A stretch of 64,000 bases of DNA, from positions 104,585 to 168,584 of the IMG/VR virus record IMGVR_UViG_3300009500_000011; one strand, 5' to 3'. The position numbers and the translations under genes were made by a program. A model generated the notes under the pieces. That model was not told the DNA's origin, searched no databases, and saw only the letters and a list, made by a program, of their open reading frames with translations. This DNA comes from a virus (taxonomy: Duplodnaviria; Heunggongvirae; Uroviricota; Caudoviricetes). Positions 34,466 to 55,185 of the stretch are shown here, one piece after another (position 1 is the first letter of the stretch; each line of letters opens with the position of its first letter).

Positions 34466-35905
34466 TTGAACAAAATTTACGACCTTATCATTATTGGAAC
34501 TGGCCCAGCAGGTTTTTTCTGTGCAATAGATTTAGTTAGAAAAGGATATACAAATATCCTTATGATTGATAAAGGTTCTCTTCGTACAGGTAAATCAGAC
34601 GAAAATGTGACAGAAGGATGGGCAGGGGCTGGGGCACATTCCGATGGTAAGGTCAATATGACTCATAAAGTCGGAGGAATCTTAGCCGACGTTATTGGGT
34701 TAAAGCGTTTCCATGAGTTATTAGAAAAACAAGACCAAATGTGGCTTGATTTTTCTCCAACAAATGAACAAAAAAAATTACGTCAACAAAAATCTCCTGA
34801 TGCTGATTTAGATGTAAGGTTATTCGTTCCAACTGATGAATCTAAAATTTTAAGAGCTAAAGCCTTAGCAAATCACATGGAACTTGAAACATATCCAATA
34901 AGACATTTGGGCACAGATAATATGTTAGATTCAACTAACAATATGCTCGAATATCTTAAATCTAATGGTGTTGAAGTAGTATTAGAGGCTGAAGTAAAGC
35001 AAATCTGTAAATATAAAAATGAAGAAGAATTTGTAGTAAGAGTTCAAAAAAAAGATAGTTGGTGTGACCCAGAATTTGGAGACTATGAACTTGAACATTA
35101 TGACGGGAAGAATGTTCTTATTGCTACAGGACGCTCTGGGGGGCATTTCTTCCGTGAAACCATGCAATGCTTAGATATTCCTATGTTAAATAATGGCGTT
35201 GATATTGGTGTTCGTGTCGAAGTTCCAAATGAGATTACAGATGGACTCTTAAAAGCCGGTATTTATGAACCTAAAATGCTTTATAGAACACCAACATTTG
35301 ACGATTCCGTTCGCACATTTTGCTGGTGTAATAGTGGATTTGTTGCAATAGAAGAATATCGTGATACCGGAATTAAGACAGTTAATGGTCATTCCTATGC
35401 CGACAAGAAATCTAACAATACAAATTTTGCTTTACTTGTTACAAAAACATTTACTTCGCCATTCGATAACCCACAAGCATATGCAGAATCAGTTTCAAGA
35501 ATGGCCAATCTTTTATCGGGTAATTCTGTTTTAGTTCAAAGATATGGAGATTTTAAAGCAGGTAGACGTACAACAGAAAAAAGATTAAATGAAGGAGCCC
35601 TTGTTCCAACTCTTGATGCAGTACCAGGAGATTTATCTCTTGCTATTCCTTATCGTCAAATGTTGGCAATCGGAGAAATGTTAGAAGCTATGGACAAAGT
35701 TTTACCAGGTATTGCAAGTAAATACACCTTGTTATACGGTATTGAAGCTAAATTCTATAGCAATCGAGTTAATATTGATTCAAATAGTATGACAGAAATT
35801 AAAGGTCTTTATGTTGCTGGAGACGGTTCTGGATGGACAAGAGGGTTAAATCAAGCGGCAATTCAAGGACTTGTTGTTAGTGAAGGAATTTTAAATGCAA
35901 AATAA
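34466..35905 (+). CDS. FAD-dependent oxidoreductase (COG2509-like)
   Basis: N-terminal DLIIIGTGPAGFFCAIDL dinucleotide-binding motif; C-terminal GLYVAGDGSGWTRG. Confidence 0.65.
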   Translation: MNKIYDLIIIGTGPAGFFCAIDLVRKGYTNILMIDKGSLRTGKSDENVTEGWAGAGAHSDGKVNMTHKVGGILADVIGLKRFHELLEKQDQMWLDFSPTNEQKKLRQQKSPDADLDVRLFVPTDESKILRAKALANHMELETYPIRHLGTDNMLDSTNNMLEYLKSNGVEVVLEAEVKQICKYKNEEEFVVRVQKKDSWCDPEFGDYELEHYDGKNVLIATGRSGGHFFRETMQCLDIPMLNNGVDIGVRVEVPNEITDGLLKAGIYEPKMLYRTPTFDDSVRTFCWCNSGFVAIEEYRDTGIKTVNGHSYADKKSNNTNFALLVTKTFTSPFDNPQAYAESVSRMANLLSGNSVLVQRYGDFKAGRRTTEKRLNEGALVPTLDAVPGDLSLAIPYRQMLAIGEMLEAMDKVLPGIASKYTLLYGIEAKFYSNRVNIDSNSMTEIKGLYVAGDGSGWTRGLNQAAIQGLVVSEGILNAK

Positions 35906-36149
35906 TAAAACAGATTTATGTTTAAAGGCTTGGTTCTTTGCTTTTAATGTCGGAGATAGAATTTCTTTCACTTATAATAGCGCAGAATGTCAAGGCGAAA
36001 TTATTGAAATTCTCTATCAAACAGAATCAGATAATGAATTTGTAGCAGCCGTTAGCTTCTGTAATGATTGGCCAGCACTTGGTAATAGTACGCAGGTGAC
36101 ACTCACTAACAGTAATAACCTTAAATTACTTTATCCTCAAAATTGGTAA
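35895..36149 (+). CDS. small protein paralogous to the C-terminal domain of the 1111-aa repeat protein (both end ...PQNW)
   Basis: VGDRISFTYNSAECQGEII ... FCNDWPALG ... YPQNW vs IGQRVKFRYNGALCQGKII ... FCSNWKAIG ... NPQNW. Confidence 0.55.
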   Translation: MQNNKTDLCLKAWFFAFNVGDRISFTYNSAECQGEIIEILYQTESDNEFVAAVSFCNDWPALGNSTQVTLTNSNNLKLLYPQNW

Positions 36150-36233
36150 ATAATTAAACCACTTGAGTATAGTATACTTGTGTGGCCATAACTATTATAT
36201 CATGGCTTAATTTTGAAGGAGTATTTAAATTTT

Positions 36234-36779
36234 ATGTTCGAAAAACTAAAAACTTTTTTAAGCGTTGCCTATGATGTAATTCGCGGACGCGCTTTAGTAG
36301 AAACGCTTCATCCACGTAAACGTAATAAAGTTCGTTTGGAAATTATTCGTGCTGATGGCACAAGAGAATTACTTTCCGCAGGATGCAATAGTCGTGTAAA
36401 TAGCGGAGCAAACTGGCAAGCTTCACTTATGGGAAGTGCCGCAGGTACACCAGCAAATTATATGGCCCTTTCAACGGCAACATTATCTCCTGCTCTTACA
36501 GATACTTCACTTACCGGAGAAATTACTTCAGGTACAAATGCTGGACTTGCAAGAACACAAGCAACATATCAAAACTATACAGCACCAACAACCTTGGGCG
36601 GTCCTGCTTCATATCAATTGCAACATACATTTACTTCTTCAGCAACCGCTACAGTAAATAGTGCTGCTCTTTTTAATGCGTCTTCTTCTGGAACAATGTT
36701 CGTTGAAGCAAACCTTTCCCCCTCTGCCACACTTGCTTCTGGGGACCAGATAGTTTTAACGTGGAGTGTTCAAATTTAA
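36234..36779 (+). CDS. probable virion structural protein (Ser/Thr/Ala-rich)
   Basis: RBS AAGGAGtatttaaattttATG at 36234 (track start 36213 less likely). Confidence 0.5.
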   Translation: MFEKLKTFLSVAYDVIRGRALVETLHPRKRNKVRLEIIRADGTRELLSAGCNSRVNSGANWQASLMGSAAGTPANYMALSTATLSPALTDTSLTGEITSGTNAGLARTQATYQNYTAPTTLGGPASYQLQHTFTSSATATVNSAALFNASSSGTMFVEANLSPSATLASGDQIVLTWSVQI

Positions 36780-36826
36780 TAATTAATCAATGTTAGGTAA
36801 TTGTTAAATTTGACTTTCTATATTTT

Positions 36827-37306
36827 TTGTTATATGATTCTATCATGGAAGATATGAATTTATTCAAAAAATGTGGTCATTGCAAATTAGTTTATCGTAA
36901 AACTTTCTTTTTTAATAATAAAGCAAGATATGATGGATTAAGTAGTCAATGCAAAAAGTGCCATCAAGAAGACACTACCAAACGATATAATTCATTAAAA
37001 CAAAAATGTTTTGAAAAATATGGTGGTAAATGTATAAAATGTGGCGATACTGATAGTCGAGTTCTTCAATTTGACCATATAAATGGTGGTGGTGCAAAAG
37101 AATTAAAAAGTCAAATTTTTGGCGGAACTTATGTACCTTCTACTTACTTTCAAAAAGTTTTAAAAGATACTACAAATAAATTTCAATTATTATGTGTAAG
37201 ATGTAATTGGATAAAGAGACATGAGGAACGTGAGCAGTTTACTCGTCTGAATGAGCAGCCAATTACAGGTGAATTACTTCAAAGGTTTATAGAATATAGG
37301 GGCTAA
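36827..37306 (+). CDS. HNH homing endonuclease (paralog 2 of 3), inserted between structural genes
   Basis: Cys4 finger; DHINGGG; CVRCNWIKRHE. Confidence 0.7.
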   Translation: MLYDSIMEDMNLFKKCGHCKLVYRKTFFFNNKARYDGLSSQCKKCHQEDTTKRYNSLKQKCFEKYGGKCIKCGDTDSRVLQFDHINGGGAKELKSQIFGGTYVPSTYFQKVLKDTTNKFQLLCVRCNWIKRHEEREQFTRLNEQPITGELLQRFIEYRG

Positions 37307-37310
37307 TTAA

Positions 37311-40300
37311 ATGCCAGAAGGCTTTGTTTCAGTCCCAGATAATAGTGATGCAAGTATAACAGTTAAGGTAGTTGATACAAATGAAATAAGCATTATATCA
37401 ACTACCTTAACCACAGCAGTTACAGGTGCAGGTATATTTACCGTAACGCCTGCATCTATTACTGGAATTGGTATCGGAACACCATTAATTGTTGACACTC
37501 TTGTAAGTGGTGTACAAGAATCTGTCAATGTTCTTTCTATTGTTGGTTCAAGTTTTTCTGCAAAATTTGCATATGCTCATGCTTCAGGTGTTCCATTAGT
37601 ATTAAATGTAGAGCGCCAGAATATGAGTATAGCAGACCCAACAACTTATGGCAATATTGCTAAGGTTGCAAGTGGTACTGCATCTATAACTGATATTGGT
37701 TTAACTGTAAGACCTATTCCTACTTCGATTCCTGCTGGGACAAATACCATTGGAAATGTTGCTATAACTAGTCCTAATGGTGCTGCTGCTGGTATATATG
37801 GCCTTGTTAATCCTTATGGTACTACTCGTATTAGTGGAGAGCCAATAGGTTTATTTACTGATACTTTTGATGGTACAACTTTTGATACTGTAAATCGTTG
37901 GAATACGCCTACTGTGGTTAATGGTGGTGCATATTCACAAAATAATGGAGATTTAAGTTTAACAACTGGTCTTACTGCTAATGCTCAATCTATTGTTACA
38001 TCGCAACCAAATTTTGTGCATGTAGGTAGTAGTTTTCTTGAATATACAACAGTTGTTCAATTAGAATCTAGTCCAATAGCTACAGGTTGTCATCGTTATT
38101 GGGGAACAGGAACTTCTCCAACAGTTATTTCTGCGACAAACCCTGTTCAAAATGGATATGGATTTGAAGTAACAACTACAGGAACAATGAATGCAGTTGT
38201 TTATGCATCTGGAACTAAAGTTGGTTCTTATCCATTATCTATTCCAACGGATGGACTTCCACATAGATATGCAATTATTATTCGTTCAGATGTTGTTTTT
38301 TATTATGTAGATAACATCGAAGTTCCAGTTGCCGAATTTATGTTTGTTTTACCATCTGTACAAACTCTACCAATAAGATTTCATATTTTAAATGGAACTT
38401 CTGCTTTAACAAAAGCGCCAATTCTTTATGCTTATGGTGTTGCTATGTCCGATACGGCAGAAAATTCATCTGCTATTTCTGATGGTACTTATCCTTGGCG
38501 TAAGGCTTCTGTTGAAAATATAAATCCTAGTTCATCTGATTATGGGTTAGTAACTAGAAATATTCCCAATAGTACATCTAATCAAGCAATCGTTTCAAAT
38601 GATTTATCTACGACAGGAACTATACAAAATTTAAATGATACTGTTTCTTTAACATTAAATGGTATATCAAGTTGGATTGCTGAATTACAAGGAACTTGGA
38701 CAGGAACAGTACAATTTGAAGCATCAATTGATGGTATTAATTTTGTACCATTACGCGGCAGACAAAGTGGTATGGGTGGAAACACTATACTTTCAACTCA
38801 GGTTACAAGTACAAATGGGTATTGGCGTGGTAATGCTGCTGGGTTTAATATTTTTAGAGTACGTGCAATAACTGCTTTAACTGGTCCTGCAACTATAAAT
38901 ATTAAAGCAAGCATTGGTACAGATGCTGTCTTTTTAGATGCAGGTTTACCTCCAGGAACTGATTATATCGGTCAGGTTGGAGGAACTACCACAACATATC
39001 CTGTTACAGCCGGTGCAGTAATTACAACTACTCCAGGAACTACTGGTGTATCCGTTTATTCAGATACATATGGTAATATGAGAACTATTGTTTCTGATTA
39101 TGTTCAAACAGGAACACTTGTTAATTTAAATGATACTATTGTTGTAAATCAAAATGGTGGTTATACTGCTTGGAATGTATCATTATCTGGAACTTGGACT
39201 GGCGTAGTAACTTTTGAAGGTTCAGTAGATGGTACTAATTGGCAATCTATTACGGGTAGATTAGCCGGTGTAGAAAGTGGTCCTTTATATAATTCAACAG
39301 GTCTTAACGGTGTGTATAGAGGAAATGCTGCTGGTCTTCAATTCAGAGTAAGATTAAGTGCTATAACTAGCGGAAGTGTTACTGTTACAATTCGTTTAGG
39401 TCAAGGACCTTATGGAGTTTTCTTAAATTCTGCATTACCTGTTGGAACTAATAATATCGGTAGTATTTCTACTAGCACATTTCCTTCAACAGGCGTAAAC
39501 AATGCCCCAGGTACAGTTGGACAGACGCTATTATCTGATAGTGACGGTTCATTAAGAATACATGCTGCTGATATTTATTCTTCGGGAACAATTAATACAT
39601 TAGGCGCTACTGTTCAAATACAACCTGTTGGTCATGCTACTGCTTTAATTAATATTCAAGGAAGTTTTGTTGGTACGTTTCAATTTGAAGTTTCATTAGA
39701 TAGTTTAACGTATTATCCTATTGAAGTCAAACAAGTAGGTGTTTCAACAACGACATTATTAACAACCTCTAATGTTGGTGGAATTTTTAGAGGAAATATT
39801 GCCGGGGCTTTATATTTTCGTGTTCGCGCAACAAGTTGGACTTCAGGAAGTGCTACAGTTTATATTAACGGTTCACATGCTACTGCCCCTGTATTTTTAG
39901 ATGCTGGTCTTCCTATAGGTACAAATAACCTTGGAAGCACACAATTAGCGGACGGAACAAATAGTTCTCAATTAGCCAAGGTAACATCTGATGGGGCTCA
40001 ACTTGTTGCTATAGATTCAACAACATCATTGCCTGCTGGAACTAATTCAATTGGAAATGTTACATTAAATAACGACCTTACCTATACTGGAACTATTCTT
40101 GCCGGAACACAATTAAGCCATATTATTATACCTTTAAATGGTGCTAATACTATCGGTGTTAGCTGGACAAATAACAGTACAAATGCTATTTTACAATTTC
40201 AAGCAAGTGTTGATGGAGTAAACTATGTAGGTATTGTTCCTTATGAATCAAGTGTTTTGAATTCTTATGTTTCTACAGTATCGTCAGTATTATTTAACGG

Positions 40301-40886
40301 GCGTGTAAGTGTTGCTGGTTATAGTTACTTTAGAATTAGTAATCAATCCGCAACAGGTAGTGTTGGTTCAAATACAATCAATGTTAATTTTACTGTTAGT
40401 GGTAATTCTTCTATTGTAACTCTTGTAGACCCTATTCCACCTGGTACAAATGCTATCGGTACTGTTGGAGTAACAGCATTGCCATCAATACCTGCTGGTG
40501 GTAATACAATTGGAAATGTAAAATTAGTTGATACTGCTGGAAGCAATCAAGCTTCTGTAAATACAAATGGTTCTCTTTCGGTTTTATCTTACAATGATTC
40601 AACTACGACATATTATTATGCTACCGCAGCTAGTGCAAATGTTCTTGTTAAAAATGGTCCCGGCAGATTAATCTCTGTTACTGTTTTTAGTGCAAGTACA
40701 GGCATTTATGGTATTCTTTTTGATACTAATGGAACTCCAGTAGCAGGAACAACCACTCCATTAGTTGTTATACCTGCTTATGCCCCGGCAGGATATACAG
40801 TTTTTTGTGATATTCCTTTTGCAAATGGTTTGACTATTTTTGGAACCGGCTCAACCGGACCTACATATACTGTAAATTATCGTTAA
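37311..40886 (+). CDS. tail fibre / receptor-binding-like protein with four internal ~110-aa domain repeats
   Basis: Gly/Thr/Ser-rich 1191 aa; repeated WTGTVQFEASIDG..N...RGNAAG..FRVRA modules each preceded by LPxGTNxIG motifs. Confidence 0.6.
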   Translation: MPEGFVSVPDNSDASITVKVVDTNEISIISTTLTTAVTGAGIFTVTPASITGIGIGTPLIVDTLVSGVQESVNVLSIVGSSFSAKFAYAHASGVPLVLNVERQNMSIADPTTYGNIAKVASGTASITDIGLTVRPIPTSIPAGTNTIGNVAITSPNGAAAGIYGLVNPYGTTRISGEPIGLFTDTFDGTTFDTVNRWNTPTVVNGGAYSQNNGDLSLTTGLTANAQSIVTSQPNFVHVGSSFLEYTTVVQLESSPIATGCHRYWGTGTSPTVISATNPVQNGYGFEVTTTGTMNAVVYASGTKVGSYPLSIPTDGLPHRYAIIIRSDVVFYYVDNIEVPVAEFMFVLPSVQTLPIRFHILNGTSALTKAPILYAYGVAMSDTAENSSAISDGTYPWRKASVENINPSSSDYGLVTRNIPNSTSNQAIVSNDLSTTGTIQNLNDTVSLTLNGISSWIAELQGTWTGTVQFEASIDGINFVPLRGRQSGMGGNTILSTQVTSTNGYWRGNAAGFNIFRVRAITALTGPATINIKASIGTDAVFLDAGLPPGTDYIGQVGGTTTTYPVTAGAVITTTPGTTGVSVYSDTYGNMRTIVSDYVQTGTLVNLNDTIVVNQNGGYTAWNVSLSGTWTGVVTFEGSVDGTNWQSITGRLAGVESGPLYNSTGLNGVYRGNAAGLQFRVRLSAITSGSVTVTIRLGQGPYGVFLNSALPVGTNNIGSISTSTFPSTGVNNAPGTVGQTLLSDSDGSLRIHAADIYSSGTINTLGATVQIQPVGHATALINIQGSFVGTFQFEVSLDSLTYYPIEVKQVGVSTTTLLTTSNVGGIFRGNIAGALYFRVRATSWTSGSATVYINGSHATAPVFLDAGLPIGTNNLGSTQLADGTNSSQLAKVTSDGAQLVAIDSTTSLPAGTNSIGNVTLNNDLTYTGTILAGTQLSHIIIPLNGANTIGVSWTNNSTNAILQFQASVDGVNYVGIVPYESSVLNSYVSTVSSVLFNGRVSVAGYSYFRISNQSATGSVGSNTINVNFTVSGNSSIVTLVDPIPPGTNAIGTVGVTALPSIPAGGNTIGNVKLVDTAGSNQASVNTNGSLSVLSYNDSTTTYYYATAASANVLVKNGPGRLISVTVFSASTGIYGILFDTNGTPVAGTTTPLVVIPAYAPAGYTVFCDIPFANGLTIFGTGSTGPTYTVNYR

Positions 40887-40892
40887 TAAATT

Positions 40893-41540
40893 ATGCCTGG
40901 TTTACAAACGTTATATCTTACAAACACAGAATCCGTTATAACACCTGTTACTTCAATAAAACAGATGAATTTAGCATATGGTACAGCAAGTGATTCGTCT
41001 ACAAAAGTTGTTAATACAGCAAGTGGAACATATCAATTTATTCCAGCAAATGCTGCTAATGGAACTGCTGCAACTGTAAGCACTTCGCCGACTTCTAAAG
41101 GTTGGATATTTGAAAATACAATACCAGGGAGATATTGGCCTGGAACATGGACAATTCAGGCTTATGTTGCTTGTTCAAATAGTGGAGTTTGGACAGGTGA
41201 AACAGGGAATCTTGAAGCAAAATTTTATATTGTAACTCCAGGAACAACCACCGTTACAGAATATGCTGGTAATGCAAGCGGTACATTTACGTCAACAGCA
41301 CAAAATTTATCAGCAAATAATTTTACATTTTCTTCAAATTTAACTGTTAATCAATTTTTTTACATTTATCCAACTGCTTTATTATATGTAGAGCTTTATT
41401 GGGTTCTTGCCAATAATGCTTTTACTACAACAACTGCTTTATGGTTGGATTCACCAAACACATTTATTAAAACTTCATTTTTTGAAGAATATACAAATTT
41501 CAATTATCAAACTAGAAGAAGAACAGGAATGGGGAATTAA
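40893..41540 (+). CDS. virion structural protein (Thr-rich)
   Basis: ORF track; composition like neighbouring fibre genes. Confidence 0.5.
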   Translation: MPGLQTLYLTNTESVITPVTSIKQMNLAYGTASDSSTKVVNTASGTYQFIPANAANGTAATVSTSPTSKGWIFENTIPGRYWPGTWTIQAYVACSNSGVWTGETGNLEAKFYIVTPGTTTVTEYAGNASGTFTSTAQNLSANNFTFSSNLTVNQFFYIYPTALLYVELYWVLANNAFTTTTALWLDSPNTFIKTSFFEEYTNFNYQTRRRTGMGN

Positions 41541-41542
41541 AA

Positions 41543-44500
41543 ATGTCGCTACTCTTGTTGTATAACCGTAAACTTTTTCAGTCTACATTAACTAATTCTA
41601 ATTTAACTTCTGATTCAAATTCAAGAAAAACTTATTTTTCAAGAACTAATGTAGATTCAAGTTTGTTTTCTGATTCTTCTGCTAGAAGTGCAAATTATAA
41701 TAGAGCATCATCAGATATATTCAACTTATCTGATAGTCTTTTGCGTAATACGTTTTATGCACGTAGTTTTCAAGAAATATATTCTTTTTTCGATTCATTA
41801 AATAGACAAGTTGATAACAGTAGAAGTGAATCAGAAATTTTTAGTACGATTGATATTCAAAATTTATCACGATTTTATAATCGTTCATCCACAGATTCTT
41901 TTAATTTTTCTGATAGTAATTCTCGGTTTTTAGATTTTGCTCGTCTTCAATCTGATGTTTTAATTTTTAATGACTTAATTAATCGTTCCACTAATGTAAA
42001 TCGTTCTATAACCGACCAATCTATAGAGATAGATTCTTTAACAAGACAAATTATTGATAATCGCCAAACTTCGGACGTATTCAATACTATTTTATCTTTT
42101 ACAGAACAGCAGTTTTTATCTAGGTCAACTACCGATGGATTAAGTTCTTTTACAGATTCTTCATCGTATAGTCGAGTTTTGCCACGTTCTGTTATGGATA
42201 CTTTTAGTTTTTCGGATTCAAATTCTATTTCTCAATTACTTCTAAGAACATTTAGTGAAAGTTATTCTTTCAATGATGTTCTTAGTAATTCTGGAACTCA
42301 TATCGCTTTTTTAAGTGATGTATTAACAAATTTTGTAGATTCAATAAGCGCCGAACAGTTTGTTTCAAGAACAATGTCTGATAATCTAACGACATTAGAT
42401 TTAGTAACTTCAGTTAAGACTTTTTATAGATTAAATTCAGATAATACTAACTTTGCAGATGCTATCTCTTCTGCTAATATTTTAAATAGATTTAATATTC
42501 AAAATTTAAATTTTAATGATTCACTTAATAATCAAAATATTTTTAATAGAAATAATAGTGATTTAGTTAATAATTTTAATGATTCCACTTTAATATCTCA
42601 ATTTTTAAATCGAACCTCAAATGAGGTGTTTTCAACATCTGATATTTTATCTTTGGCGCAATTTTTGTCTCGTAATCCAACAGATATTCTTACAACGTTA
42701 GATAATAACGGTAGAAATATCTTTATTTCTAAATCAGTAATTGATTCTATTTTAACTTTCGATAGTCTTCAAAGCACGAAGATTGCTAATTTAAATCTTC
42801 AAGAAACATTTAGCTTTAGTGATGTTCTTTTAAGAAATATTATAGATTTCCGTACAAATTCAGACAGTTTTGCGTTTGTTGATTTTGTCAATAATTATAA
42901 TATATTTACAAAATCAATTGTTGAATCTTTCCAAACAAATGATTTGCTAACAAGGGAGTATATCTCAAATCAAAATCTTCAAGAAAACTTTAATTTTTTA
43001 GATATATTATCTGAAAGTCAATTTTTACAAAGACAATGTTCAGAACAATTTAATTTTATTGATGGTATATTGAGAGAAGTAATCATTAATAGGGCCATGA
43101 ACGAAACTCTATTGGAATCAGATGACATTACTACTGCTTTAGTTTTCTTTAGGAATATAAATGAACAATTCTCTACCGCAGCATCTGTAAGTTATGTACA
43201 TTCATTCGTTAGAAATTTGTTAGAAAATTTTGCAACTTCTAATTCCATTAGCAGGGCTCTTATTTCTCCAAGAAATACTTCTGATTTCTTTAATCAAATT
43301 GTCGATACTTTAAATTCATATAAAATTGCCAATTTTAATCTTGATGAAACTTTTGCATTTAATGATTCTTTATCTCAAATGTCTCTGGTTTTTAGGAATT
43401 TTTCAGATTTATTTAGTTTTTTTGATTTTACAACAAGTAATGCAATAATTCCTAGAAATATTGAAGAATCATATCCTATAAGTGATTCATTGTCCAATAA
43501 CAATTTGTTTTCAAGACTTTTCGAAGAAGAATTTAATTTTACTGATGCTGTTAATATAAGTCAGAGTTTGGCGCGTCAATTCTTAGATAGTTTTATTTTT
43601 TTTGATAATGTTTCAACAAATAGTTCAGGCGGTTTGTTTTTAAGAGTAATATCAGATGTTTTAAATACTAATGATTCTAGTGAAATAAATCAATTTTTAA
43701 ATCGTGAAAATACCGATACATCATTAACTAGTGATTCGCTCCAAAACTCCAATATTTTAAATAGACAATTTCAAGACTTATTAAGTATAGCAGATACCTT
43801 AACTTCTACTAATGAATTTAATAGATTTTTTTCTGATTTGTTGCAAACTAATGATGCTGCAAATTCAAATTACGTTTATAATTCAAATTTATCTGATAAT
43901 TTAAACACAAGTGATTCGCTAAATAGATTTTTTCTAAATATTGCAAACTTAGCAGAAACATTTACAACAACAGATTCCAACTCCAGAGAATCTATTTTGG
44001 CGCGAAGTCTATCTGAAACATTTTCTCTATTGGATTTATTAACTAGAGTTTTATCTAAAGTAAGGTTATTAAACGATAATCTTCCCTTTACTTTTGATTC
44101 ACTTGCAACATATAGTACGTTTTTTAGAGAACTGCAAGAAGAGTATATATCATCCGAAGAATTAATTAACGAATCTATTTATAAAAGGCAACTTGAAAAT
44201 ACATTTACAACTTTGGATGAGTTGATGCGTGTTTTACTTATTGCTAGGGAAGTATTTGAAGTCGGAGAAATATCAGATACTGTTGCAAGTAAAGCAGTTA
44301 TTCTAAGATTTGTAGAAGAATTTTTTGAATTAGTAGATAATATTGCCTTAAATCAAAGAATTAATCGTAGTTCTGAGTATCAAAGTAACTTCTCGGATAT
44401 TCTAAATAGAGAAGTTATATTAGAAAGATTTTTGTCTGATTCAAGTCAATTTTTTGACAATTCTTTACTTCAAAAAGTTGGTGCAAGATTTTTCGTTAAT

Positions 44501-44878
44501 TTATTTGATGAATACTCATTTACTGATGAACTTATTGGGACAAGTTTGTTAGAAAGATTTTCTCAGGACATATTACAAACAGCCGATGAAGTTGCTCGTT
44601 TAGTAAATAATAATAGAAGTGTAGAAGAAATTTTTGAATTCTTAGATATTGCTTCGCGTAAACCAGTATTTAAAATTGGTCAAAGAGTTAAATTCAGATA
44701 TAATGGTGCCTTATGTCAAGGTAAAATTATTTTAAGATATTATGCAACAAATCCTAGTGAAGGCATTAGATATCAAGTTAATGTTGATTTTTGTAGTAAT
44801 TGGAAAGCAATTGGAAAAACAACACGAATTGATGTAGATTTAAATGATTTATTATCAATTAATCCTCAGAATTGGTAA
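41543..44878 (+). CDS. giant tandem-repeat protein (~50 copies of a ~21-aa unit) with C-terminal PQNW domain
   Basis: repeating ...SDxFxFxDSLxRxxxxxRxxx... units across >1000 aa; unique C-terminal 80 aa shared with ORF 35895. Confidence 0.6.
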   Translation: MSLLLLYNRKLFQSTLTNSNLTSDSNSRKTYFSRTNVDSSLFSDSSARSANYNRASSDIFNLSDSLLRNTFYARSFQEIYSFFDSLNRQVDNSRSESEIFSTIDIQNLSRFYNRSSTDSFNFSDSNSRFLDFARLQSDVLIFNDLINRSTNVNRSITDQSIEIDSLTRQIIDNRQTSDVFNTILSFTEQQFLSRSTTDGLSSFTDSSSYSRVLPRSVMDTFSFSDSNSISQLLLRTFSESYSFNDVLSNSGTHIAFLSDVLTNFVDSISAEQFVSRTMSDNLTTLDLVTSVKTFYRLNSDNTNFADAISSANILNRFNIQNLNFNDSLNNQNIFNRNNSDLVNNFNDSTLISQFLNRTSNEVFSTSDILSLAQFLSRNPTDILTTLDNNGRNIFISKSVIDSILTFDSLQSTKIANLNLQETFSFSDVLLRNIIDFRTNSDSFAFVDFVNNYNIFTKSIVESFQTNDLLTREYISNQNLQENFNFLDILSESQFLQRQCSEQFNFIDGILREVIINRAMNETLLESDDITTALVFFRNINEQFSTAASVSYVHSFVRNLLENFATSNSISRALISPRNTSDFFNQIVDTLNSYKIANFNLDETFAFNDSLSQMSLVFRNFSDLFSFFDFTTSNAIIPRNIEESYPISDSLSNNNLFSRLFEEEFNFTDAVNISQSLARQFLDSFIFFDNVSTNSSGGLFLRVISDVLNTNDSSEINQFLNRENTDTSLTSDSLQNSNILNRQFQDLLSIADTLTSTNEFNRFFSDLLQTNDAANSNYVYNSNLSDNLNTSDSLNRFFLNIANLAETFTTTDSNSRESILARSLSETFSLLDLLTRVLSKVRLLNDNLPFTFDSLATYSTFFRELQEEYISSEELINESIYKRQLENTFTTLDELMRVLLIAREVFEVGEISDTVASKAVILRFVEEFFELVDNIALNQRINRSSEYQSNFSDILNREVILERFLSDSSQFFDNSLLQKVGARFFVNLFDEYSFTDELIGTSLLERFSQDILQTADEVARLVNNNRSVEEIFEFLDIASRKPVFKIGQRVKFRYNGALCQGKIILRYYATNPSEGIRYQVNVDFCSNWKAIGKTTRIDVDLNDLLSINPQNW

Positions 44879-44904
44879 CTTTACAGTTTCTTTACATAGC
44901 ATTG

Positions 44905-44933
44905 TTGCAAATATTGGTATGCTTGTCTATAAT
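44905..44933 (+). promoter_or_regulatory. sigma70 promoter TTGCAA-17-TATAAT
   Basis: ttgcaa atattggtatgcttgtc tataat at the start of the ORF-free region. Confidence 0.6.
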
Positions 44934-45036
44934 CTCTAATAGAGTTGAAGCTGAAGGAAACGAAGCAGGTGGTTTAAATGCCATCGGAAGCAAGTGCAAG
45001 TCTTGCCATCTCTGCCATAAAAAACTAAATAAATTT

Positions 45037-45440: not shown

Positions 45441-45465
45441 GTTCCATTCGTTTAAATTTTATTTA

Positions 45466-45499
45466 ATCCTTGGGAATATATTTCTCAAGGATTTTTTTG
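45466..45499 (+). terminator. intrinsic terminator
   Basis: atccttgggaatatatttctcaaggattttttt. Confidence 0.65.
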
Positions 45500-45519: not shown

Positions 45520-47205
45520 ATGAAATACAATACTAAAACAGTAAATGCTGGTCCAGGAACAAAAATGATAAATCTTGCAGGCGGAGAAGCTTTTAAAGTT
45601 GATAATCGTACTGCATTATATTTAACTTCTGCAACTTCTTTAGGTGGCGGTCAAGGAAATAAATATTATGTTTCTGCAAATCAAGAATACAAAAATATTC
45701 TTGAACTAATTGAAAAGGTTTCCGCTCAAGACCCAGAATTTATTTTCCAATTGGCTGCATATTGTCGTCAAGATTTATACCTTCGTAGTATTCCAACGGT
45801 ATTATTTATCGAAGGTATTCGTGCAATGCATAAGCAAAAAAAGGCCAATGCACCATATCCAGTAGATGCATCTAAGTATGCAAATGCTATTTTTGGTCGT
45901 GCTGATGAAATTGTTGAAGCAGTTGCATATTGGCTTGGAGTTGAAGGCCATCACAAATTGCCTTCCCCTCTTCGTAAATCTTTGACCATTGCTTTAAATT
46001 CATTTGATGAATACCGCTTGCTTAAATATAATCAAGAAGATAAGCAAGTTACATTTAAAGATATTGTTCGTCTTGTGCATCCAGAACCAAAAACTGATGT
46101 GCAAAGTGCAATTTTCAAATACTTCATCAAGGATGAAATCAGTCCAGAATTAATGCCAAAGGCAACTGCCCGCAAGGCTTTGCTTTCACGTACTCAATTT
46201 GATGAAGAAGCACAACGCTTGATGAGAGATTCATCTGCTACTTGGGAAACTGTAATTGCTAAATTCGGTTCGACTAAAGAAATTTGGGAAGCAGTTATTC
46301 CAAATATGGGATACATGGCTTTATTACGTAATCTTAATAATTTTCTTAAAAAAGAAGTAGATTTAGATTTAGTAATTCCTCGCCTTGTGAATCCGCAAGA
46401 AATTCGTAAAAGCAAGCAATTGCCTTTCCGTTTTTACACAGCAATGAAACAACTTGGTGTAGAAGATAACAATAAGAATTCTACGATGACATATTATGGA
46501 TATTCCGATTCAGTAAAAACAGCATTTGAAAAATGGCGTAATGTAAATTCTAGCGATGGAATTTCTCGTTTACGTAATGCTCTTGGTGTTGCTATGAATA
46601 TTGCAGTAGAAAATGTTCCTCACCTTTCAGGTCGTACCGTTGTTGCGGCAGACCTTTCTGGTTCTATGAGTCAACCTCTTAATAACAAATCAAATGTAAC
46701 TTATCGTGAAATCGCTTGTATTATGGCTGGTATTGCTGGTTCAATAGCACCAGATAATGTAATTTGTGGATTTGGTTGTTCATTTGCTGTTGCTAAAAAA
46801 GGCAAAGATATTCTTGAAACTGCAAATAATATTGATAAATTAAATGTTGGAATGTCAACGGATGCATGGCGTATTCTTGATTACTTGCTTACAAACAAAA
46901 TTTTTGTAGATAGAGTCATGTATTTTACAGATACACAATGTTATAATTCATATGGGGGCGCAAATTTAAACGAACTTTGGAAAAAATACAAAGTTCTTTG
47001 CCAATCAACTGGTAAAAAAGTTCCTGTTCTTTATGAAGTAAATCTTGCAGGTGGTAATACATCTAGTTTTAATTCTGAACAAAGAGTTGCTACCATTGGT
47101 GGATGGTCTGAAAGAATTTTTGATTTAATTACTACTTATGAAACTGACCCTCGTCAAGCAATAAGTAAAATTAAAGAAAAATATTCAGATTTAGTATCTG
47201 TTTAA
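45520..47205 (+). CDS. rsr: Ro60 (Rsr) ortholog: TROVE module + C-terminal vWA domain
   Basis: GGGQGNKYYVS, FQLAAYCRQD, ALLRNLNNF, LPFRFYTAMKQL and vWA MIDAS VVAADLSGSMSQ align with conserved Ro60 blocks; ATG 45520 with RBS AAAGGAAAAAAGAATG (track start 45439 is upstream read-through). Confidence 0.8.
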   Translation: MKYNTKTVNAGPGTKMINLAGGEAFKVDNRTALYLTSATSLGGGQGNKYYVSANQEYKNILELIEKVSAQDPEFIFQLAAYCRQDLYLRSIPTVLFIEGIRAMHKQKKANAPYPVDASKYANAIFGRADEIVEAVAYWLGVEGHHKLPSPLRKSLTIALNSFDEYRLLKYNQEDKQVTFKDIVRLVHPEPKTDVQSAIFKYFIKDEISPELMPKATARKALLSRTQFDEEAQRLMRDSSATWETVIAKFGSTKEIWEAVIPNMGYMALLRNLNNFLKKEVDLDLVIPRLVNPQEIRKSKQLPFRFYTAMKQLGVEDNNKNSTMTYYGYSDSVKTAFEKWRNVNSSDGISRLRNALGVAMNIAVENVPHLSGRTVVAADLSGSMSQPLNNKSNVTYREIACIMAGIAGSIAPDNVICGFGCSFAVAKKGKDILETANNIDKLNVGMSTDAWRILDYLLTNKIFVDRVMYFTDTQCYNSYGGANLNELWKKYKVLCQSTGKKVPVLYEVNLAGGNTSSFNSEQRVATIGGWSERIFDLITTYETDPRQAISKIKEKYSDLVSV

Positions 47206-50046: not shown

Positions 50047-50124
50047 GGTGTTTGTAGTGTAGTGGTTTTAGCACGTTAGCCTGTGAAGCTGAAAGGGCCG
50101 TTTCGAATACGGTCAAACACCCCA
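50047..50124 (+). tRNA. tRNA-His (anticodon GTG) with genomically encoded G-1 opposite C73, CCA encoded
   Basis: g(-1)+gtgtttg / caaacac+c; loop ctGTGaa. Confidence 0.7.
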
Positions 50125-50155
50125 ATTAAATCTTTCTTGAAGAAGAGAAAAATAA

Positions 50156-50284
50156 ATGCACATTATAAAAACTTACTCACCTTATCATGTTGCTTGTACA
50201 TGTAATCATCCTAAATATAAACATATTGAAGGAGCAAAATGTGTAAAAGCAGAATGTAATTGTGAGTCATTTAACCGTAAGTAA
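50156..50284 (+). CDS. 42-aa Cys-rich peptide (below track cutoff)
   Basis: ORF between two tRNAs; 6 Cys. Confidence 0.3.
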   Translation: MHIIKTYSPYHVACTCNHPKYKHIEGAKCVKAECNCESFNRK

Positions 50285-50290
50285 AATTTT

Positions 50291-50368
50291 TGCGAGTATG
50301 GTGTTTAACGGTTCAGCATGGGTGCCTTCCAAGCATTTGGTGCCGGTTCAAATCCGGCTACTCGCTCC
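50291..50368 (+). tRNA. tRNA-Gly (anticodon TCC), CCA encoded
   Basis: perfect acceptor gcgagta/tactcgc; loop ctTCCaa; T-arm gccggttcaaatccggc. Confidence 0.7.
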
Positions 50369-50387
50369 AATTATTTAAGGAATTATA

Positions 50388-50858
50388 GTGGCAAAACATA
50401 GATTAAGTTTTTTTCAACGTTTATCTGGTTTAACAACTGAACTTGATGGATATAAACTTGATGACAATGCCTACTTTATTTATAGTTATCGACCTCATAA
50501 ATTAAATGACGTTTATAGATATGAAATCACATTAGCCCAGGGCAAAATTGTTCAAATATCTACATTTGATTTTGATGATGACTTTCATCCTTACACTATT
50601 AAAACTGAAAAAATTTATCACCATATTCTGGATATTTTCAGAACAAGACAAAAAGTTACACCACTAGTTGATATTGATAGAAACATTGGTGTTAACCGAA
50701 ATAATATTTTTGTTAGTTATGATGCTGCACTTGAAAAATATGAAAAAATTGTTACTGAAACATTTTACTTTTTTAAAGATATGGAAGCAGCATCTTCATT
50801 TAAGAACCAAGCAGACGAATTGAATGCTCATCATGAATATCTTTTGAAGTTTTTGTAA
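50388..50858 (+). CDS. hypothetical protein
   Basis: ORF track. Confidence 0.5.
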   Translation: MAKHRLSFFQRLSGLTTELDGYKLDDNAYFIYSYRPHKLNDVYRYEITLAQGKIVQISTFDFDDDFHPYTIKTEKIYHHILDIFRTRQKVTPLVDIDRNIGVNRNNIFVSYDAALEKYEKIVTETFYFFKDMEAASSFKNQADELNAHHEYLLKFL

Positions 50859-51162
50859 GAGTTGTTTGCATAAAATCAAGACAATCTTTACACATTAAAA
50901 TTAATTTTGGATTTTGAAAATTTTCTTCATCAATAATTTCAACAAAATTATTTTTTTCTGTCTTGCAAAGCAAACATAAATGTGGTATTCCATCATTAAC
51001 TGCCAAAAAATATAAAGAATTGGAAAATTTTTCAACAATAATAAATGGCCTCATTTGATGAACAATTTCTCCAATATTTAAAAGATATTTTTCCATTAAA
51101 TCGAATTCTTCATCGGTACTAAACCCAGCAGATGTTCCATCGGGCTTGAATTTGAATAGCAT
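50800..51162 (-). CDS. hypothetical protein on minus strand (overlaps 3' end of 50388..50858 by ~60 nt)
   Basis: 120-aa ORF with GGAG upstream on minus strand; two CxxC pairs. Confidence 0.4.
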   Translation of the reverse strand: MLFKFKPDGTSAGFSTDEEFDLMEKYLLNIGEIVHQMRPFIIVEKFSNSLYFLAVNDGIPHLCLLCKTEKNNFVEIIDEENFQNPKLILMCKDCLDFMQTTLTKTSKDIHDEHSIRLLGS

Positions 51163-51186
51163 ATATTGTATAATCTCCTTATATAT

Positions 51187-51263
51187 GGCCGTATACCAGC
51201 CTAATTTCCTAAATTAGTAACTGTAGATGGACAAGGTAGGTTCGAATCCTATTGCGGCCTCCA
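51187..51263 (+). tRNA. tRNA-like gene: perfect acceptor and T-arm, CCU-anticodon hairpin, aberrant/absent D-arm (possible tRNA-Arg CCT variant or pseudo-tRNA)
   Basis: acceptor ggccgta/tgcggcc; hairpin ctaat/ttCCTaa/attag sits where the D-arm should be; CCA encoded. Confidence 0.35.
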
Positions 51264-51286
51264 TATAATTATAAGAAGATAATAAT

Positions 51287-51637
51287 ATGCTTGAAGATTT
51301 TAGTATTCGTGTATATCCAAATCAAAGCCTTACTCATGAAGAAGTGGTATTTTTTCTAAAAAATCGAATATTATGTTCTGATAGGATAACAAAAAAATTT
51401 ATTGCTTTAAAGAAAAAAACTATTCTAAATGGACTTTTTAGAAATTGTATAACTAGAGGTTCAAAGTGGAAACAAGCTTTTCAAACTAAAGAAGAAGCTA
51501 ATACTTTTGTTGAAAAACGATTTGGTAAAGATAAAGCATATAGTTATAAATGTGAACTTCATGGTTATCACATATCTTGCATAGATGAAAGTACGTATCG
51601 AAGAGGATATTTGAAAAGAGAAGAAGAGACGAGATAA
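51287..51637 (+). CDS. hypothetical protein
   Basis: ORF track. Confidence 0.5.
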   Translation: MLEDFSIRVYPNQSLTHEEVVFFLKNRILCSDRITKKFIALKKKTILNGLFRNCITRGSKWKQAFQTKEEANTFVEKRFGKDKAYSYKCELHGYHISCIDESTYRRGYLKREEETR

Positions 51638-51670
51638 ATTTATTGGACCTTTCTCAAAGGAAATAATAAA

Positions 51671-52426
51671 ATGCGCGCTCTTGGTTTAAAATCTTTAGTA
51701 GACCCACGTAGGGACCAATATCCAAAATTAATTTTAAAAGATGGTCCAATTCCTTCAAAAGTTGAATATGCTCCTTTATATCCTCCGGTTGATGACCAAG
51801 GAAATTTTGGTACATGTGTTGCATTTGGAACCGGCAAAGTCTTTGAATACTTTTATAATAAGCAGAACAACAAACAACTTTTAATTTCAAAACGTGCCCT
51901 TTTTTCAGAAATTAAACAAAATTTTTACCCTCATGATACTCAAGATGATGGTGCCCAAGTTTCTGATGGATTACAAATATTATCTTTAAATTACATCTTA
52001 GAATCTGATTTTCCTTATGAACCGGCTGGAGATTTTAGTCAGTTTTTACATGGGGTTCCAGCAAATCTTGAAAAAACAGATTTTAAAATAAAACATTTTG
52101 TATCGGTAAATCCCGTCATTGATGATATGAAAAATGCATTATTTCATCAAGGCCCTTTAGCTATCGGAACATCCTTTGCAAACGAATGGATGGAGATTGG
52201 TAGTGATGGTCGTTTACCTGGTTCTAATCTTACATCTGCTGGTGGACATTGCATGTCTATTACCGGATATGATGATGACTTTGTAAATCTAGATGGTTCA
52301 AAAGGTGCTTTCCATTATATTAACAATTGGTCAACTGCTTGGGGCCAAGAAGGATATGCTTGGTTGCCATATAACGTTGATACAGACTTTTTTCCAACCG
52401 ACCTTTTTACAGTTCAAGTTCAATAA
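51671..52426 (+). CDS. papain-like (C1 family) cysteine peptidase
   Basis: QGNFGTCVAFG (Gln oxyanion + Cys); GGHCMSITGYDD (His); NNWSTAWGQEGYAW (Asn-Trp). Confidence 0.75.
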   Translation: MRALGLKSLVDPRRDQYPKLILKDGPIPSKVEYAPLYPPVDDQGNFGTCVAFGTGKVFEYFYNKQNNKQLLISKRALFSEIKQNFYPHDTQDDGAQVSDGLQILSLNYILESDFPYEPAGDFSQFLHGVPANLEKTDFKIKHFVSVNPVIDDMKNALFHQGPLAIGTSFANEWMEIGSDGRLPGSNLTSAGGHCMSITGYDDDFVNLDGSKGAFHYINNWSTAWGQEGYAWLPYNVDTDFFPTDLFTVQVQ

Positions 52427-52437
52427 TAATCAAACTG

Positions 52438-52466
52438 TTGACAAAACAGAGGAAATTGATTATACT
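52438..52466 (+). promoter_or_regulatory. consensus sigma70 promoter TTGACAAAAC-17-TATACT
   Basis: ttgaca aaacagaggaaattgat tatact. Confidence 0.65.
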
Positions 52467-52471
52467 ATAGA

Positions 52472-53125: not shown

Positions 53126-53131
53126 ATTGAT

Positions 53132-55179: not shown

Positions 55180-55185
55180 TAAATC

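What the first reader, a model, noticed from the sequence alone, without database searches (positions are those of the whole stretch)
41543..44878. 1111-aa protein made of ~50 degenerate ~21-aa tandem repeats, with a C-terminal PQNW domain also found as a free-standing 84-aa ORF
Almost the whole protein is a periodic array (consensus roughly x-SD-x-F-x-F-x-D-S-L-x-R-x-x-x-x-x-R-x-x) of unknown fold. It lies directly after the tail-fibre-like gene. The last ~80 residues are clearly homologous to ORF 35895..36149 (both contain CQG(E/K)II, FC(N/S)(D/N)W, and end in PQNW). This suggests a shared anchoring or assembly domain used once alone and once on a long repetitive stalk (a fibre, whisker or decoration protein).
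Basis: seen in the sequence. Interest (0 to 1): 0.55.

Follow-up and report, generated by a model that had tools for sequence, protein, structure and literature searches.

The report
Jumbo-phage fibre with fifty 20-residue repeats
A 1111-residue gene of an uncultured jumbo phage is almost entirely 50 copies of a 20-residue Asp/Arg-marked repeat; this repeat is in no catalogue yet occurs in over 2000 protein clusters, including phage fibre-like proteins and archaeal surface proteins, and the protein most likely forms a long virion fibre ending in a small Tudor/SH3-like barrel.

Summary
The lag-20 autocorrelation z is 16.9, and 50 units span residues 17-1027. The last 71 residues are homologous to the 84-aa ORF (38% identity, E 4e-14).

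The gene is real. An orthologue in a 275-kb contig is 98% identical with no indels, and pN/pS is 0.25.

The repeat matches no Pfam, NCBIfam or PDB entry. A profile search nevertheless finds 2028 cluster representatives. These include archaeal membrane-anchored surface proteins and phage proteins carrying Laminin-G domains.

In 9 of 10 independent loci, a homologue of podophage GP4 fibre-I protein gp80 sits beside the repeat gene. Here that homologue is 36234-36779.

The 215-aa gene just upstream is fused as the N-terminal domain in a relative. The C-terminal domain folds confidently as an SH3/Tudor-like barrel. The pairing of a fused copy with a free-standing copy recurs in a second phage.

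AlphaFold2 could not fold the repeats as a monomer. Every even position is conserved (D,Φ,Φ,D,Φ,R,Φ,Φ,R,Φ), which indicates β structure. I infer an intertwined trimeric fibre, but this is not shown.

Verdict: probably a virion fibre built on a new repeat family. Moderate interest.

The parts
41543..44878 (+). Gene for the 1111-aa repeat protein (the 'DR-repeat' fibre candidate)
   Evidence: ORF. The same gene is called in Logan and ENA assemblies. Orthologue is 98% identical with no indels, pN/pS 0.25.
41591..44623 (+). Array of 50 units of 20 residues (residues 17-1027), with a partial 51st unit running to 44662
   Evidence: Autocorrelation z 16.9 at lag 20. Segmentation and consensus. Unit identity 22.9% against 8.8% shuffled, and an archaeal-only profile scores 193.5 bits.
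44663..44875 (+). C-terminal SH3/Tudor-like beta-barrel domain (residues 1041-1111), the 'PQNW' domain
35895..36149 (+). Free-standing 84-aa copy of the same barrel domain
   Evidence: BLASTP E 4e-14 against residues 1042-1111. Conserved at 93% in the related phage, pN/pS 0.13. An analogous free copy lies beside the repeat gene in L014.
36234..36779 (+). Gp80-like gene (181 aa; the ORF listing extends it to TTG 36213), the conserved partner of the repeat gene
   Evidence: Pfam PF23140 Gp80 26.9 bits, E 6.7e-6. A family profile hits PDB 8JOU 'virion-associated phage protein', E 3.8e-4. Homologues flank the repeat gene in 9 of 10 loci.
36845..37306 (+). HNH endonuclease gene, a mobile insertion inside the module and probably not functionally part of it
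   Evidence: phrog_2255 E 2.8e-19. An HNH gene also sits beside the Gp80-like gene in L015.
37311..40886 (+). 1191-aa fibre-like gene with internal ~110-aa repeats and a variable C-terminal tip
   Evidence: Sequence. It is 90% identical to the 1256-aa orthologue, but the last ~250 aa diverge with 65 aa of indels. No family hit.
40893..41540 (+). 215-aa gene, 2 nt upstream of the repeat gene. It is the separately encoded equivalent of the N-terminal domain of other repeat proteins.
   Evidence: phmmer E 3e-14 (residues 4-187 against 3-188 of P0047) and a hit in P0019. BLASTP gives 37% identity, E 3e-12.

Best explanation
The window comes from an uncultured jumbo phage. Genes 35895-44878 form a fibre module, and the 1111-aa protein is most likely a virion appendage (a fibre or whisker).

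The proposed parts of the module:
- The stalk is built from 50 copies of a 20-residue repeat. Each unit is two 10-residue half-units of the same beta-type pattern (x-c-x-Φ-x-Φ-x-c-x-Φ). The two charged positions are Asp in the first half and Arg in the second.
- I infer that three chains intertwine into a beta-helical rod. Acidic and basic half-units would then stack alternately and form Asp-Arg ladders along the axis, as Glu/Lys do in the T4 gp5 needle. That gives a rod of roughly 25-50 nm.
- The C-terminal SH3/Tudor-like barrel is the end that docks to the particle or to a partner. It occupies the place of the membrane anchor in archaeal relatives.
- The free 84-aa copy of the barrel probably binds the same partner or pairs with the fused copies.
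- The 215-aa protein supplies the N-terminal domain that is fused in other family members.
- The Gp80-like protein is an obligatory partner.

Shown: the repeat, its family, the gene neighbourhood, the barrel fold, and purifying selection. Inferred: virion location, trimeric beta-helix, and the docking role.
For: Gene reality and constraint:
- 98% identical orthologue, no indels, pN/pS 0.25.

Repeat family:
- P0001 E 2e-27 and P0002 E 4e-12.
- 2028 cluster representatives at E<=1e-3 and 124 at <=1e-30.
- Family-wide consensus from 1929 units has D/E 96% at position 2, 98% at position 8, and R 90% at position 18. All even positions are conserved, odd positions are S/T/A, and G+P are rare.

Beta character:
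- Period-2 conservation.
- Side-chain volumes at positions 14 and 16 anticorrelate, r = -0.35.
- Lags 5 and 7 are negative.

Oligomer hint:
- AF2 monomer with a 31-row family alignment gives pLDDT 28 and no secondary structure. The barrel in the same protein folds at about 90.
- In the T4 gp5 trimeric beta-helix, alternating E/K at one repeat position forms salt bridges spanning the structure (PMC4576200).

Virion context:
- The Gp80-like partner is related to a virion-associated protein of podophage GP4 and is present in 9 of 10 loci.
- Relatives lie about 2 kb from the major head gene (L016) and about 1 kb from the large terminase (L017).
- Laminin_G_3 occurs in 13 of 59 relatives.

Stalk role:
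- N-terminal regions are diverse and C-terminal ends are alternative: TM anchor, barrel, or other.

Domain pairing:
- A fused plus a free barrel recurs in L014.
- The 215-aa protein matches the N-domain of P0047.
- The window proteins have no signal peptide or TM segment (sequence).
Against: - There is no direct evidence of virion association.
- The module sits among nucleotide-metabolism, RNA-repair and tRNA genes rather than in a recognisable structural block of this window.
- No isolated phage in GenBank has a detectable homologue.
- The trimeric beta-helix is not supported by my covariation tests. There is no volume coupling between positions i and i+10. Asp-Arg loss couplings are weak (OR 1.1-1.7), whereas same-position couplings between adjacent units (i, i+20) are stronger (OR 2-5). 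That fits 20-residue layers at least as well.
- AF2 drew the last two, Glu-rich units as helices, at low confidence (pLDDT 52-62).
- In usual tail fibres the N-terminus, not the C-terminus, attaches to the virion.
Confidence: 0.55

Rival explanations
1. Same biological role (a surface fibre or stalk), but the repeat folds as a single-chain parallel beta-solenoid with one 20-residue coil per layer. The two 10-residue halves would form two facing sheets, with Asp and Arg closing the arcs. That gives a monomeric rod of about 24 nm.
For: - Same-position couplings between adjacent units: co-loss OR 4.7 (D8), 4.1 (D2) and 2.1 (R12).
- Volume anticorrelation at lag 20 of -0.11 to -0.13 for positions 14 and 16, against about -0.05 at lag 40.
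- The top lag-1 mutual information is position 4 with position 4.
- All-even inward pattern.
Against: - AF2 usually folds beta-solenoids readily, yet here it gave pLDDT 28.
- In-register stacking would put Asp on Asp and Arg on Arg.
- Adjacent-unit couplings may simply reflect recent unit duplication.
- There are no Gly/Pro/Asn turn positions.
Confidence: 0.2
2. The protein is not a virion component. It would be an intracellular or released phage product, for example a scaffold, a cell-envelope-binding or adhesive protein made during infection, or a host-derived surface-protein gene carried as a moron.
For: - The gene lies among non-structural genes.
- Its GC content is 0.26-0.28 against 0.35 for its neighbours.
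- The closest sequence relatives are archaeal chromosomal surface proteins flanked by metabolic genes.
Against: - It has no signal peptide or TM segment, unlike the cellular relatives.
- The partner is related to a virion-associated fibre protein.
- Relatives in small phage contigs sit beside capsid and terminase genes.
- It is strongly conserved between two phage genomes: 98.6% nucleotide identity, higher than the neighbouring genes.
Confidence: 0.15
3. The repeat region is an alpha-helical or alpha/beta coiled-coil stalk, with 20 = two heptads plus a six-residue beta-layer as in Hartmann et al. 2016, rather than a beta-fibre.
For: - 20 = 14 + 6 is one of the periodicities that produce beta-layers in trimeric fibres, many of them from phages (PMC4786415).
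- AF2 drew helices for the last two units.
- Asp preceded by Ser/Thr could act as an N-cap.
Against: - The hydrophobic spacing is 2,4,4,2,4,4, not the 5,5,3,4,3 required.
- In any beta-layer register, positions e and g are not K/R and D/E/Q, and Arg falls on a core position (searches compared).
- The lag-7 autocorrelation z is -3.7.
- The family is Thr/Ser/Val-rich.
- Volume compensation occurs between i and i+2.
Confidence: 0.06
4. The array is a low-complexity, intrinsically disordered Ser/Asn-rich linker, or a spurious ORF, with no defined structure.
For: - Ser 14.7% and Asn 11.5% of residues.
- AF2 pLDDT 28.
- No database family.
Against: - Position-specific conservation across archaea and phages: D 96-98%, R 90%.
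- Phe+Leu+Ile make up 28% of residues.
- pN/pS is 0.25 and there are no indels between strains.
- 2028 homologous clusters.
Confidence: 0.04

Closest known systems
T4 gp5 C-terminal triple-stranded beta-helix (VxGxxxxx repeat; PMC4576200)
   Same: A short, regular repeat in a phage fibrous protein. Residues point alternately inward and outward. Alternating acidic and basic residues at one repeat position make salt-bridge ladders along the rod. It is an obligate trimer, which would explain the AF2 monomer failure.
   Different: The gp5 unit is 8 residues with a conserved Gly. Here the half-unit is 10 residues with no Gly/Pro, two charged positions, and 50 full units against about 20 short ones. 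There is no sequence similarity, and trimer formation was not tested.
Podophage GP4 fibre I protein gp80 (Pfam PF23140; PDB 8JOU 'virion-associated phage protein')
   Same: The conserved neighbour of the repeat gene (36234-36779) matches this family: 26.9 bits, and a profile hit of E 3.8e-4 to 8JOU.
   Different: This is the partner, not the repeat protein itself. The Pfam score is 0.1 bit under the gathering cutoff. GP4 is not known to me to have a DR-repeat protein. The archaeal versions carry an N-terminal membrane segment.
Archaeal surface proteins P0001 and P0002 (uncultured archaeon MAG CAVSWV010000005.1)
   Same: They are the closest sequence relatives of the repeat array (E 2e-27 and 4e-12) and have the same 20-residue unit. 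A Gp80-like gene lies directly upstream.
   Different: They have 17-24 units rather than 50 and large N-terminal globular regions. They end in a Ser/Thr linker, a transmembrane helix and an Arg-rich tail in place of the barrel. They are chromosomal, with metabolic neighbours.
Tudor / SH3-like beta-barrels (for example TbTudor 6if4, Bacillus KapB 1y71)
   Different: Sequence identity is 12-17% and there is no Pfam hit. An aromatic cage or other ligand site was not examined. The fold is too generic to transfer a function.
Adenovirus and reovirus triple beta-spiral, and RTX beta-roll repeats
   Same: Short sequence repeats that build long, thin beta-rich rods or rolls in viral fibres, or Asp-rich repeats (own knowledge).
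   Different: Those use 15-residue repeats with Gly/Pro turns, or 9-residue GGxGxDxUx Ca-binding repeats. Neither motif is present here.

Membership tests
The 20-residue 'DR-repeat' family (uncatalogued; defined here by profile A1) | Tandem 20-residue units with D/E at positions 2 and 8, R at 12 and 18, and hydrophobic residues at 4, 6, 10, 14, 16 and 20 | tested here: met
   50 units. Family consensus from 1929 units. A profile built without window sequences scores 193.5 bits, E 5e-53.
The 20-residue 'DR-repeat' family | A Gp80-like gene next to the repeat gene | tested here: met
   Here it is 36234-36779, 4.8 kb upstream, with the HNH, 1191-aa and 215-aa genes in between. It is present in 9 of 10 loci.
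Any Pfam, NCBIfam or PHROG family, or any solved structure, for the repeat protein | Significant profile or sequence match | tested here: not met
   No hit in Pfam or PHROGs, NCBIfam, PDB sequences or GenBank phages.
Triple-stranded beta-helix of phage fibres (gp5-like) | Short repeat with strict inward/outward alternation | tested here: met
   All even positions are conserved and odd positions are small and polar.
Triple-stranded beta-helix of phage fibres (gp5-like) | Homotrimer with intertwined chains | not testable with these tools
   Only monomer AF2 was available, and it failed (pLDDT 28). That is compatible with an obligate oligomer but is not proof of one.
Triple-stranded beta-helix of phage fibres (gp5-like) | Layer-to-layer contacts between successive half-units (i with i+10) | tested here: inconclusive
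   No volume coupling at lag 10. D-R co-loss OR 1.06-1.68.
Triple-stranded beta-helix of phage fibres (gp5-like) | VxGxxxxx octapeptide motif | tested here: not met
   The period is 20 (10+10), and no Gly is conserved.
Alpha/beta coiled coil with beta-layers (Hartmann et al. 2016) | Heptad a/d core interrupted by hexads or nonads; beta3 = D/N/T/S, g = D/E/Q, e = K/R | tested here: not met
   Lag 7 z = -3.7. No register satisfies the pattern (searches compared).
Pentapeptide repeat / leucine-rich repeat solenoids (other ~20-residue repeats) | Period-5 A(D/N)LXX, or LxxLxLxxN | tested here: not met
   Lag 5 z = -0.9. The consensus lacks both motifs. No Pfam hit.
SH3/Tudor-like beta-barrel fold (C-terminal domain and the 84-aa ORF) | Five-stranded, strongly bent antiparallel barrel of about 60 residues | tested here: met
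Tudor 'royal family' readers (functional membership) | Aromatic cage that binds methylated Lys or Arg | not tested
   Only the fold was compared. Identity is 12-20%.
Pfam PF23140 Gp80 (for neighbour 36234-36779) | Score at or above the gathering cutoff of 27 bits | tested here: inconclusive
   26.9 bits, E 6.7e-6. Orthologues in L014 and L016 are recorded as unmarked (strong) hits. A 7-sequence profile hits 8JOU at E 3.8e-4.

The most novel reading that the evidence does not exclude
The 20-residue Asp/Arg repeat could be a previously undescribed kind of fibrous protein fold, an intertwined beta-rod zipped by alternating Asp and Arg layers. It would always work with a Gp80-like partner as a two-gene 'stalk cassette'. 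The cassette would be shared between archaeal cell-surface appendages and the virion appendages of phages, including jumbo phages, with interchangeable anchors (membrane helix or Tudor-like barrel) and interchangeable heads.
Probability: 0.3. Interest if true: 0.7.

Novelty: new variant of a known kind. Interest (0 to 1): 0.5.

Why it matters
Long repetitive stalks set how far a phage's receptor-binding parts reach and how they are arranged. Here a repeat present in more than 2000 protein clusters has no family model, no solved structure and no usable AlphaFold monomer model.

Defining this repeat would let thousands of 'hypothetical' phage and archaeal proteins be annotated as fibre or stalk proteins. 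So would recognising its constant Gp80-like partner and its alternative anchors.

It would also give structural biologists a clean target: 50 near-regular units for fibre engineering, as was done with the gp5 needle. And it would document a structural module shared between archaeal cell surfaces and bacteriophage-like viruses.

Tried and rejected
- **DNA tandem repeats.** None were found, so the array is not a recent expansion.
- **Catalogue searches.** Pfam, PHROGs and NCBIfam gave nothing for the repeat protein, the 84-aa, the 215-aa or the 1191-aa proteins.
- **GenBank phages.** There was no DNA or protein match. P0036 matched only through its LamG domain.
- **Word-indexed homology searches.** The search with the 84-aa ORF found only its own cluster. 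The search with the repeat alignment found nothing, so that search was wasted.
- **AF2 on an 11-unit block.** A 31-row family alignment gave pLDDT 28, so no fold search was possible. The afdb50 library was unavailable.
- **Covariation tests.** Mutual information, volume coupling and charge-loss coupling could not separate a 10-residue-layer model from a 20-residue-layer model.
- **Alternative repeat classes.** The alpha/beta coiled-coil, pentapeptide and LRR readings were rejected on periodicity and motif.
- **Frameshift fusion.** A -1 frameshift joining the 215-aa and 1111-aa ORFs was considered. The frames overlap by only 25 nt and there is no slippery heptamer, so I treat them as separate, translationally coupled genes.
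- **Paralogue lineages of the barrel.** Whether the free and fused barrels form two old paralogue lineages could not be decided. All pairwise identities fall between 24% and 39%.
Full report
**1. What is in the sequence**

ORF 41543..44878 (+) encodes 1111 residues, and ORF 35895..36149 (+) encodes 84 residues.

The large protein is periodic. BLOSUM62 autocorrelation against 300 shuffles peaks at lag 20 (z 16.9), lag 40 (13.2) and lag 60 (11.1). Lag 21 gives 0.3, lag 5 gives -0.9 and lag 7 gives -3.7.

A PSSM-chain segmentation places 50 units between residues 17 and 1027, plus a partial unit at 1028-1040. Forty-one spacings are exactly 20.

The consensus is x-[DE]-x-[FL]-x-[FT]-x-D-S-[LVI]-x-R-x-x-[IFL]-[LF]-x-R-x-[LF], with Asp at 92% at position 8 and Arg at 82% at position 18. 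Units are on average 22.9% identical to each other, against 8.8% +/- 0.16% after shuffling. There is no repeat at the DNA level, so the array is ancient.

The last 71 residues match the 84-aa ORF at 38% identity, E 4e-14. The corrections are the period, and the fact that the gene immediately upstream is a 215-aa ORF rather than the 1191-aa fibre-like gene.

**2. It is a real, constrained gene in a jumbo phage**

The window carries the following:
- a DnaG-type primase
- ribonucleotide reductase
- dNMP kinase
- T4-type RNA ligase
- Thg1
- RlaP
- a Ro60/TROVE protein
- 32 tRNA genes

Its BCS1-like AAA protein is about 30% identical to proteins of 300-440-kb jumbo phages of Gram-negative bacteria.

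The same gene order is present on a 274,834-bp ENA contig (L004). There the repeat protein is again 1111 aa, 98% identical, with no indels. It differs by 23 synonymous and 22 non-synonymous codon changes, giving pN/pS 0.25.

The gene is AT-richer than its neighbours, with GC 0.26-0.28 against 0.35.

**3. The repeat belongs to a large, uncatalogued family**

Nothing matches in Pfam, PHROGs, NCBIfam, PDB sequences or GenBank phages.

The word-indexed search found two distant relatives, P0001 (E 2e-27) and P0002 (E 4e-12). Both have 17-24 clean copies of the same 20-mer, followed by a Ser/Thr linker, a transmembrane helix and an Arg-rich tail.

P0002 is chromosomal in an uncultured archaeon MAG. 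It lies between DoxX, CO-dehydrogenase and histidine-utilisation genes, and P0001 is syntenic.

A 60-column profile of three units, searched against 1.84 billion representatives, found 2028 proteins at E<=1e-3, 844 at <=1e-10 and 124 at <=1e-30. A profile made only from the archaeal units still scores the window ORF at 193.5 bits.

Among the top 150 hits the median is 16.5 units and the maximum is 45, so the 50 units here are the longest array seen.

The N-terminal regions are diverse, and 13 of 59 scanned members carry Laminin_G_3. C-terminal ends are alternative: a membrane anchor in 6 of 150, the barrel domain in P0011 and P0088, or something else. That is the architecture of a spacer or stalk between a variable head and an anchor.

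**4. A conserved partner and other links**

The gene at 36234-36779 scores 26.9 bits on Pfam Gp80, the podophage GP4 fibre I family. A profile of seven homologues hits PDB 8JOU 'virion-associated phage protein' at E 3.8e-4.

Homologues of this gene lie next to the repeat gene in the following loci:
- both archaeal loci (34% and 33% identity, E 1e-12 and 3e-13)
- phage contigs L014, L016, L020 and L021, where the homologue is upstream of the repeat gene (adjacent in L014, L020 and L021; one small ORF intervenes in L016)
- L015, a 312,871-bp (313-kb) jumbo-phage contig, where an HNH gene separates them
- L017, more weakly (E 5e-15)

That makes 9 of 10 independent loci. The exception, L019, is a contig of only 3.9 kb.

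In L016 the pair lies about 2 kb upstream of the major head gene. In L017 it lies about 1 kb upstream of the large terminase.

The 215-aa ORF that ends 2 nt before the repeat gene aligns end to end with the N-terminal domain of family member P0047. phmmer gives E 3e-14 and BLASTP gives 37% identity, E 3e-12. This is a fusion-type link between the two window genes.

The 1191-aa gene between them has a variable C-terminal tip. It is 90% identical overall to its orthologue, but the last ~250 residues diverge with 65 aa of indels. That is what one expects of a receptor-binding fibre.

**5. The C-terminal domain**

A five-sequence alignment was used (window fused copy, the 84-aa ORF, P0004, and the P0011 and P0088 C-termini). 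AF2 gave pLDDT about 90 for a five-stranded barrel.

The fold is generic, so no function can be transferred from it.

The pairing of a fused and a free copy is not peculiar to this phage. In L014 the repeat protein P0011 ends in the domain, and the next gene (97 aa) is a free copy. That copy scores E 1.1e-20 against a profile it did not contribute to. In L014 the similarity between the two copies extends into the linker before the barrel.

'PQNW' itself is not conserved. One G, F, Y, W and L are invariant.

**6. The fold of the repeat**

AF2 on an 11-unit block with a 31-row alignment of family blocks failed completely, with pLDDT 28 and no secondary structure.

The family-wide consensus from 1929 units is:

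[SAT]-D-[ST]-[LVFI]-[TS]-[TFVLI]-[ST]-D-[SAT]-[VAL]-[TAS]-R-x-[LV]-x-[LFY]-x-R-[TS]-[ALVI]

Every even position is conserved, odd positions are small and polar, and Gly+Pro are rare. The unit is therefore two 10-residue halves of one pattern, with Asp in the first half and Arg in the second.

Side-chain volumes at positions 14 and 16 compensate each other (r = -0.35), and so do positions 4 and 6 (r = -0.14). This is expected for neighbours on one face of a beta-strand.

These features argue for beta structure and against helices or coiled coils. The alpha/beta coiled-coil idea (20 = 14 + 6) was checked against the published register rules and does not fit.

In the T4 gp5 trimeric beta-helix, alternating Glu and Lys at one repeat position form salt bridges along the whole rod. 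By analogy I propose a trimeric intertwined beta-helix in which acidic and basic half-units stack alternately. This would also explain why the monomer prediction failed.

This is an inference, and my own tests did not confirm it:
- There is no coupling between positions i and i+10.
- Asp-Arg co-loss is weak, with OR 1.1-1.7.
- Same-position couplings between adjacent units are stronger, with OR 2-5.
- Asp2/Asp8 (OR 6.8) and Arg12/Arg18 (OR 2.65) are lost together.

A single-chain solenoid with 20-residue coils therefore remains a serious rival.

**7. Best explanation and standing**

Most likely (about 0.55) the protein is a virion fibre or whisker of a jumbo phage. In this model:
- the DR-repeat array is the rigid stalk
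- the barrel is the docking end, since it sits where archaeal relatives have their membrane anchor
- the free 84-aa barrel is a partner or competitor for the same site
- the 215-aa protein is the detached head domain
- the Gp80-like protein is an obligatory companion

Virion location, oligomeric state and binding partners are all untested.

The kind of object (a phage fibre with a repetitive stalk) is known. The repeat family, its constant partner and its presence on archaeal cell surfaces are not described in any catalogue I could search. I therefore rate it a new variant of a known kind, of moderate interest.

Noticed in passing
window 44941-45014 (+), with hairpin 45465-45493 and TROVE gene 45520-47205: A tRNA-like element lies 63 nt after the repeat gene and about 500 nt upstream of the Ro60/TROVE gene. 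It scores 32 bits on Rfam tRNA (cutoff 29), E 1e-4, and ARAGORN missed it. Bacterial Ro60 genes usually sit beside Y-RNA-like genes that have a tRNA-like module (own knowledge), so this gap may encode a phage Y-RNA-like RNA. The MFE fold is no better than shuffles. A strong terminator-like hairpin precedes the TROVE start.
   Followed up: partly
window 16876-28000, 50048-62944: There are 32 tRNA genes in 64 kb. One tRNA-like gene (18948-19021) was reported with a four-base anticodon 'atcg' and scores 35 bits on Rfam.
   Followed up: no
window 34466-35905 vs L004:7516-10011: The FAD-dependent protein gene is 479 aa here but 831 aa, with a LAGLIDADG_3 hit, in the related contigs L004-L007. This is a homing-endonuclease or intein presence/absence polymorphism. 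The 84-aa barrel ORF overlaps its 3' end by 11 nt.
   Followed up: no
window 36845-37306; L015:13749-15485: An HNH endonuclease gene sits right beside the Gp80-like gene in two different jumbo-phage contigs. This suggests a recurrent homing site next to this conserved gene.
   Followed up: no
window 37311-40886: The 1191-aa protein repeats the motif [LI]P-x-G[TG][ND]-x-[IL]G about seven times and has four ~110-aa internal repeats. It matches no family. Its last ~250 residues differ from the 1256-aa orthologue, with 65 aa of indels, while the rest is 90-100% identical.
   Followed up: partly
L002:7142-11987 and L012:2457-8091 (archaeal chromosomes): A Gp80-like gene with an N-terminal membrane segment, followed by a DR-repeat surface protein with a C-terminal membrane anchor, forms a two-gene island. 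It sits between DoxX and a methyltransferase in two related archaeal contigs, and no other viral genes are nearby.
   Followed up: partly
window 11631-14197, 29683-32001, 45520-47205: RNA-repair-type genes cluster here: T4-like RNA ligase, tRNA-His guanylyltransferase Thg1, RlaP, metallophosphoesterases and Ro60/TROVE. Elsewhere in the window there is also a papain-like peptidase (51671-52426) and an SPFH/flotillin protein (55186-56619).
   Followed up: no
window 41000-45000: The repeat gene is a GC trough, at 0.255-0.28 against about 0.35 on either side. It is nevertheless more conserved at the nucleotide level between the two phage genomes (98.6%) than the neighbouring genes (91-98.4%).
   Followed up: partly
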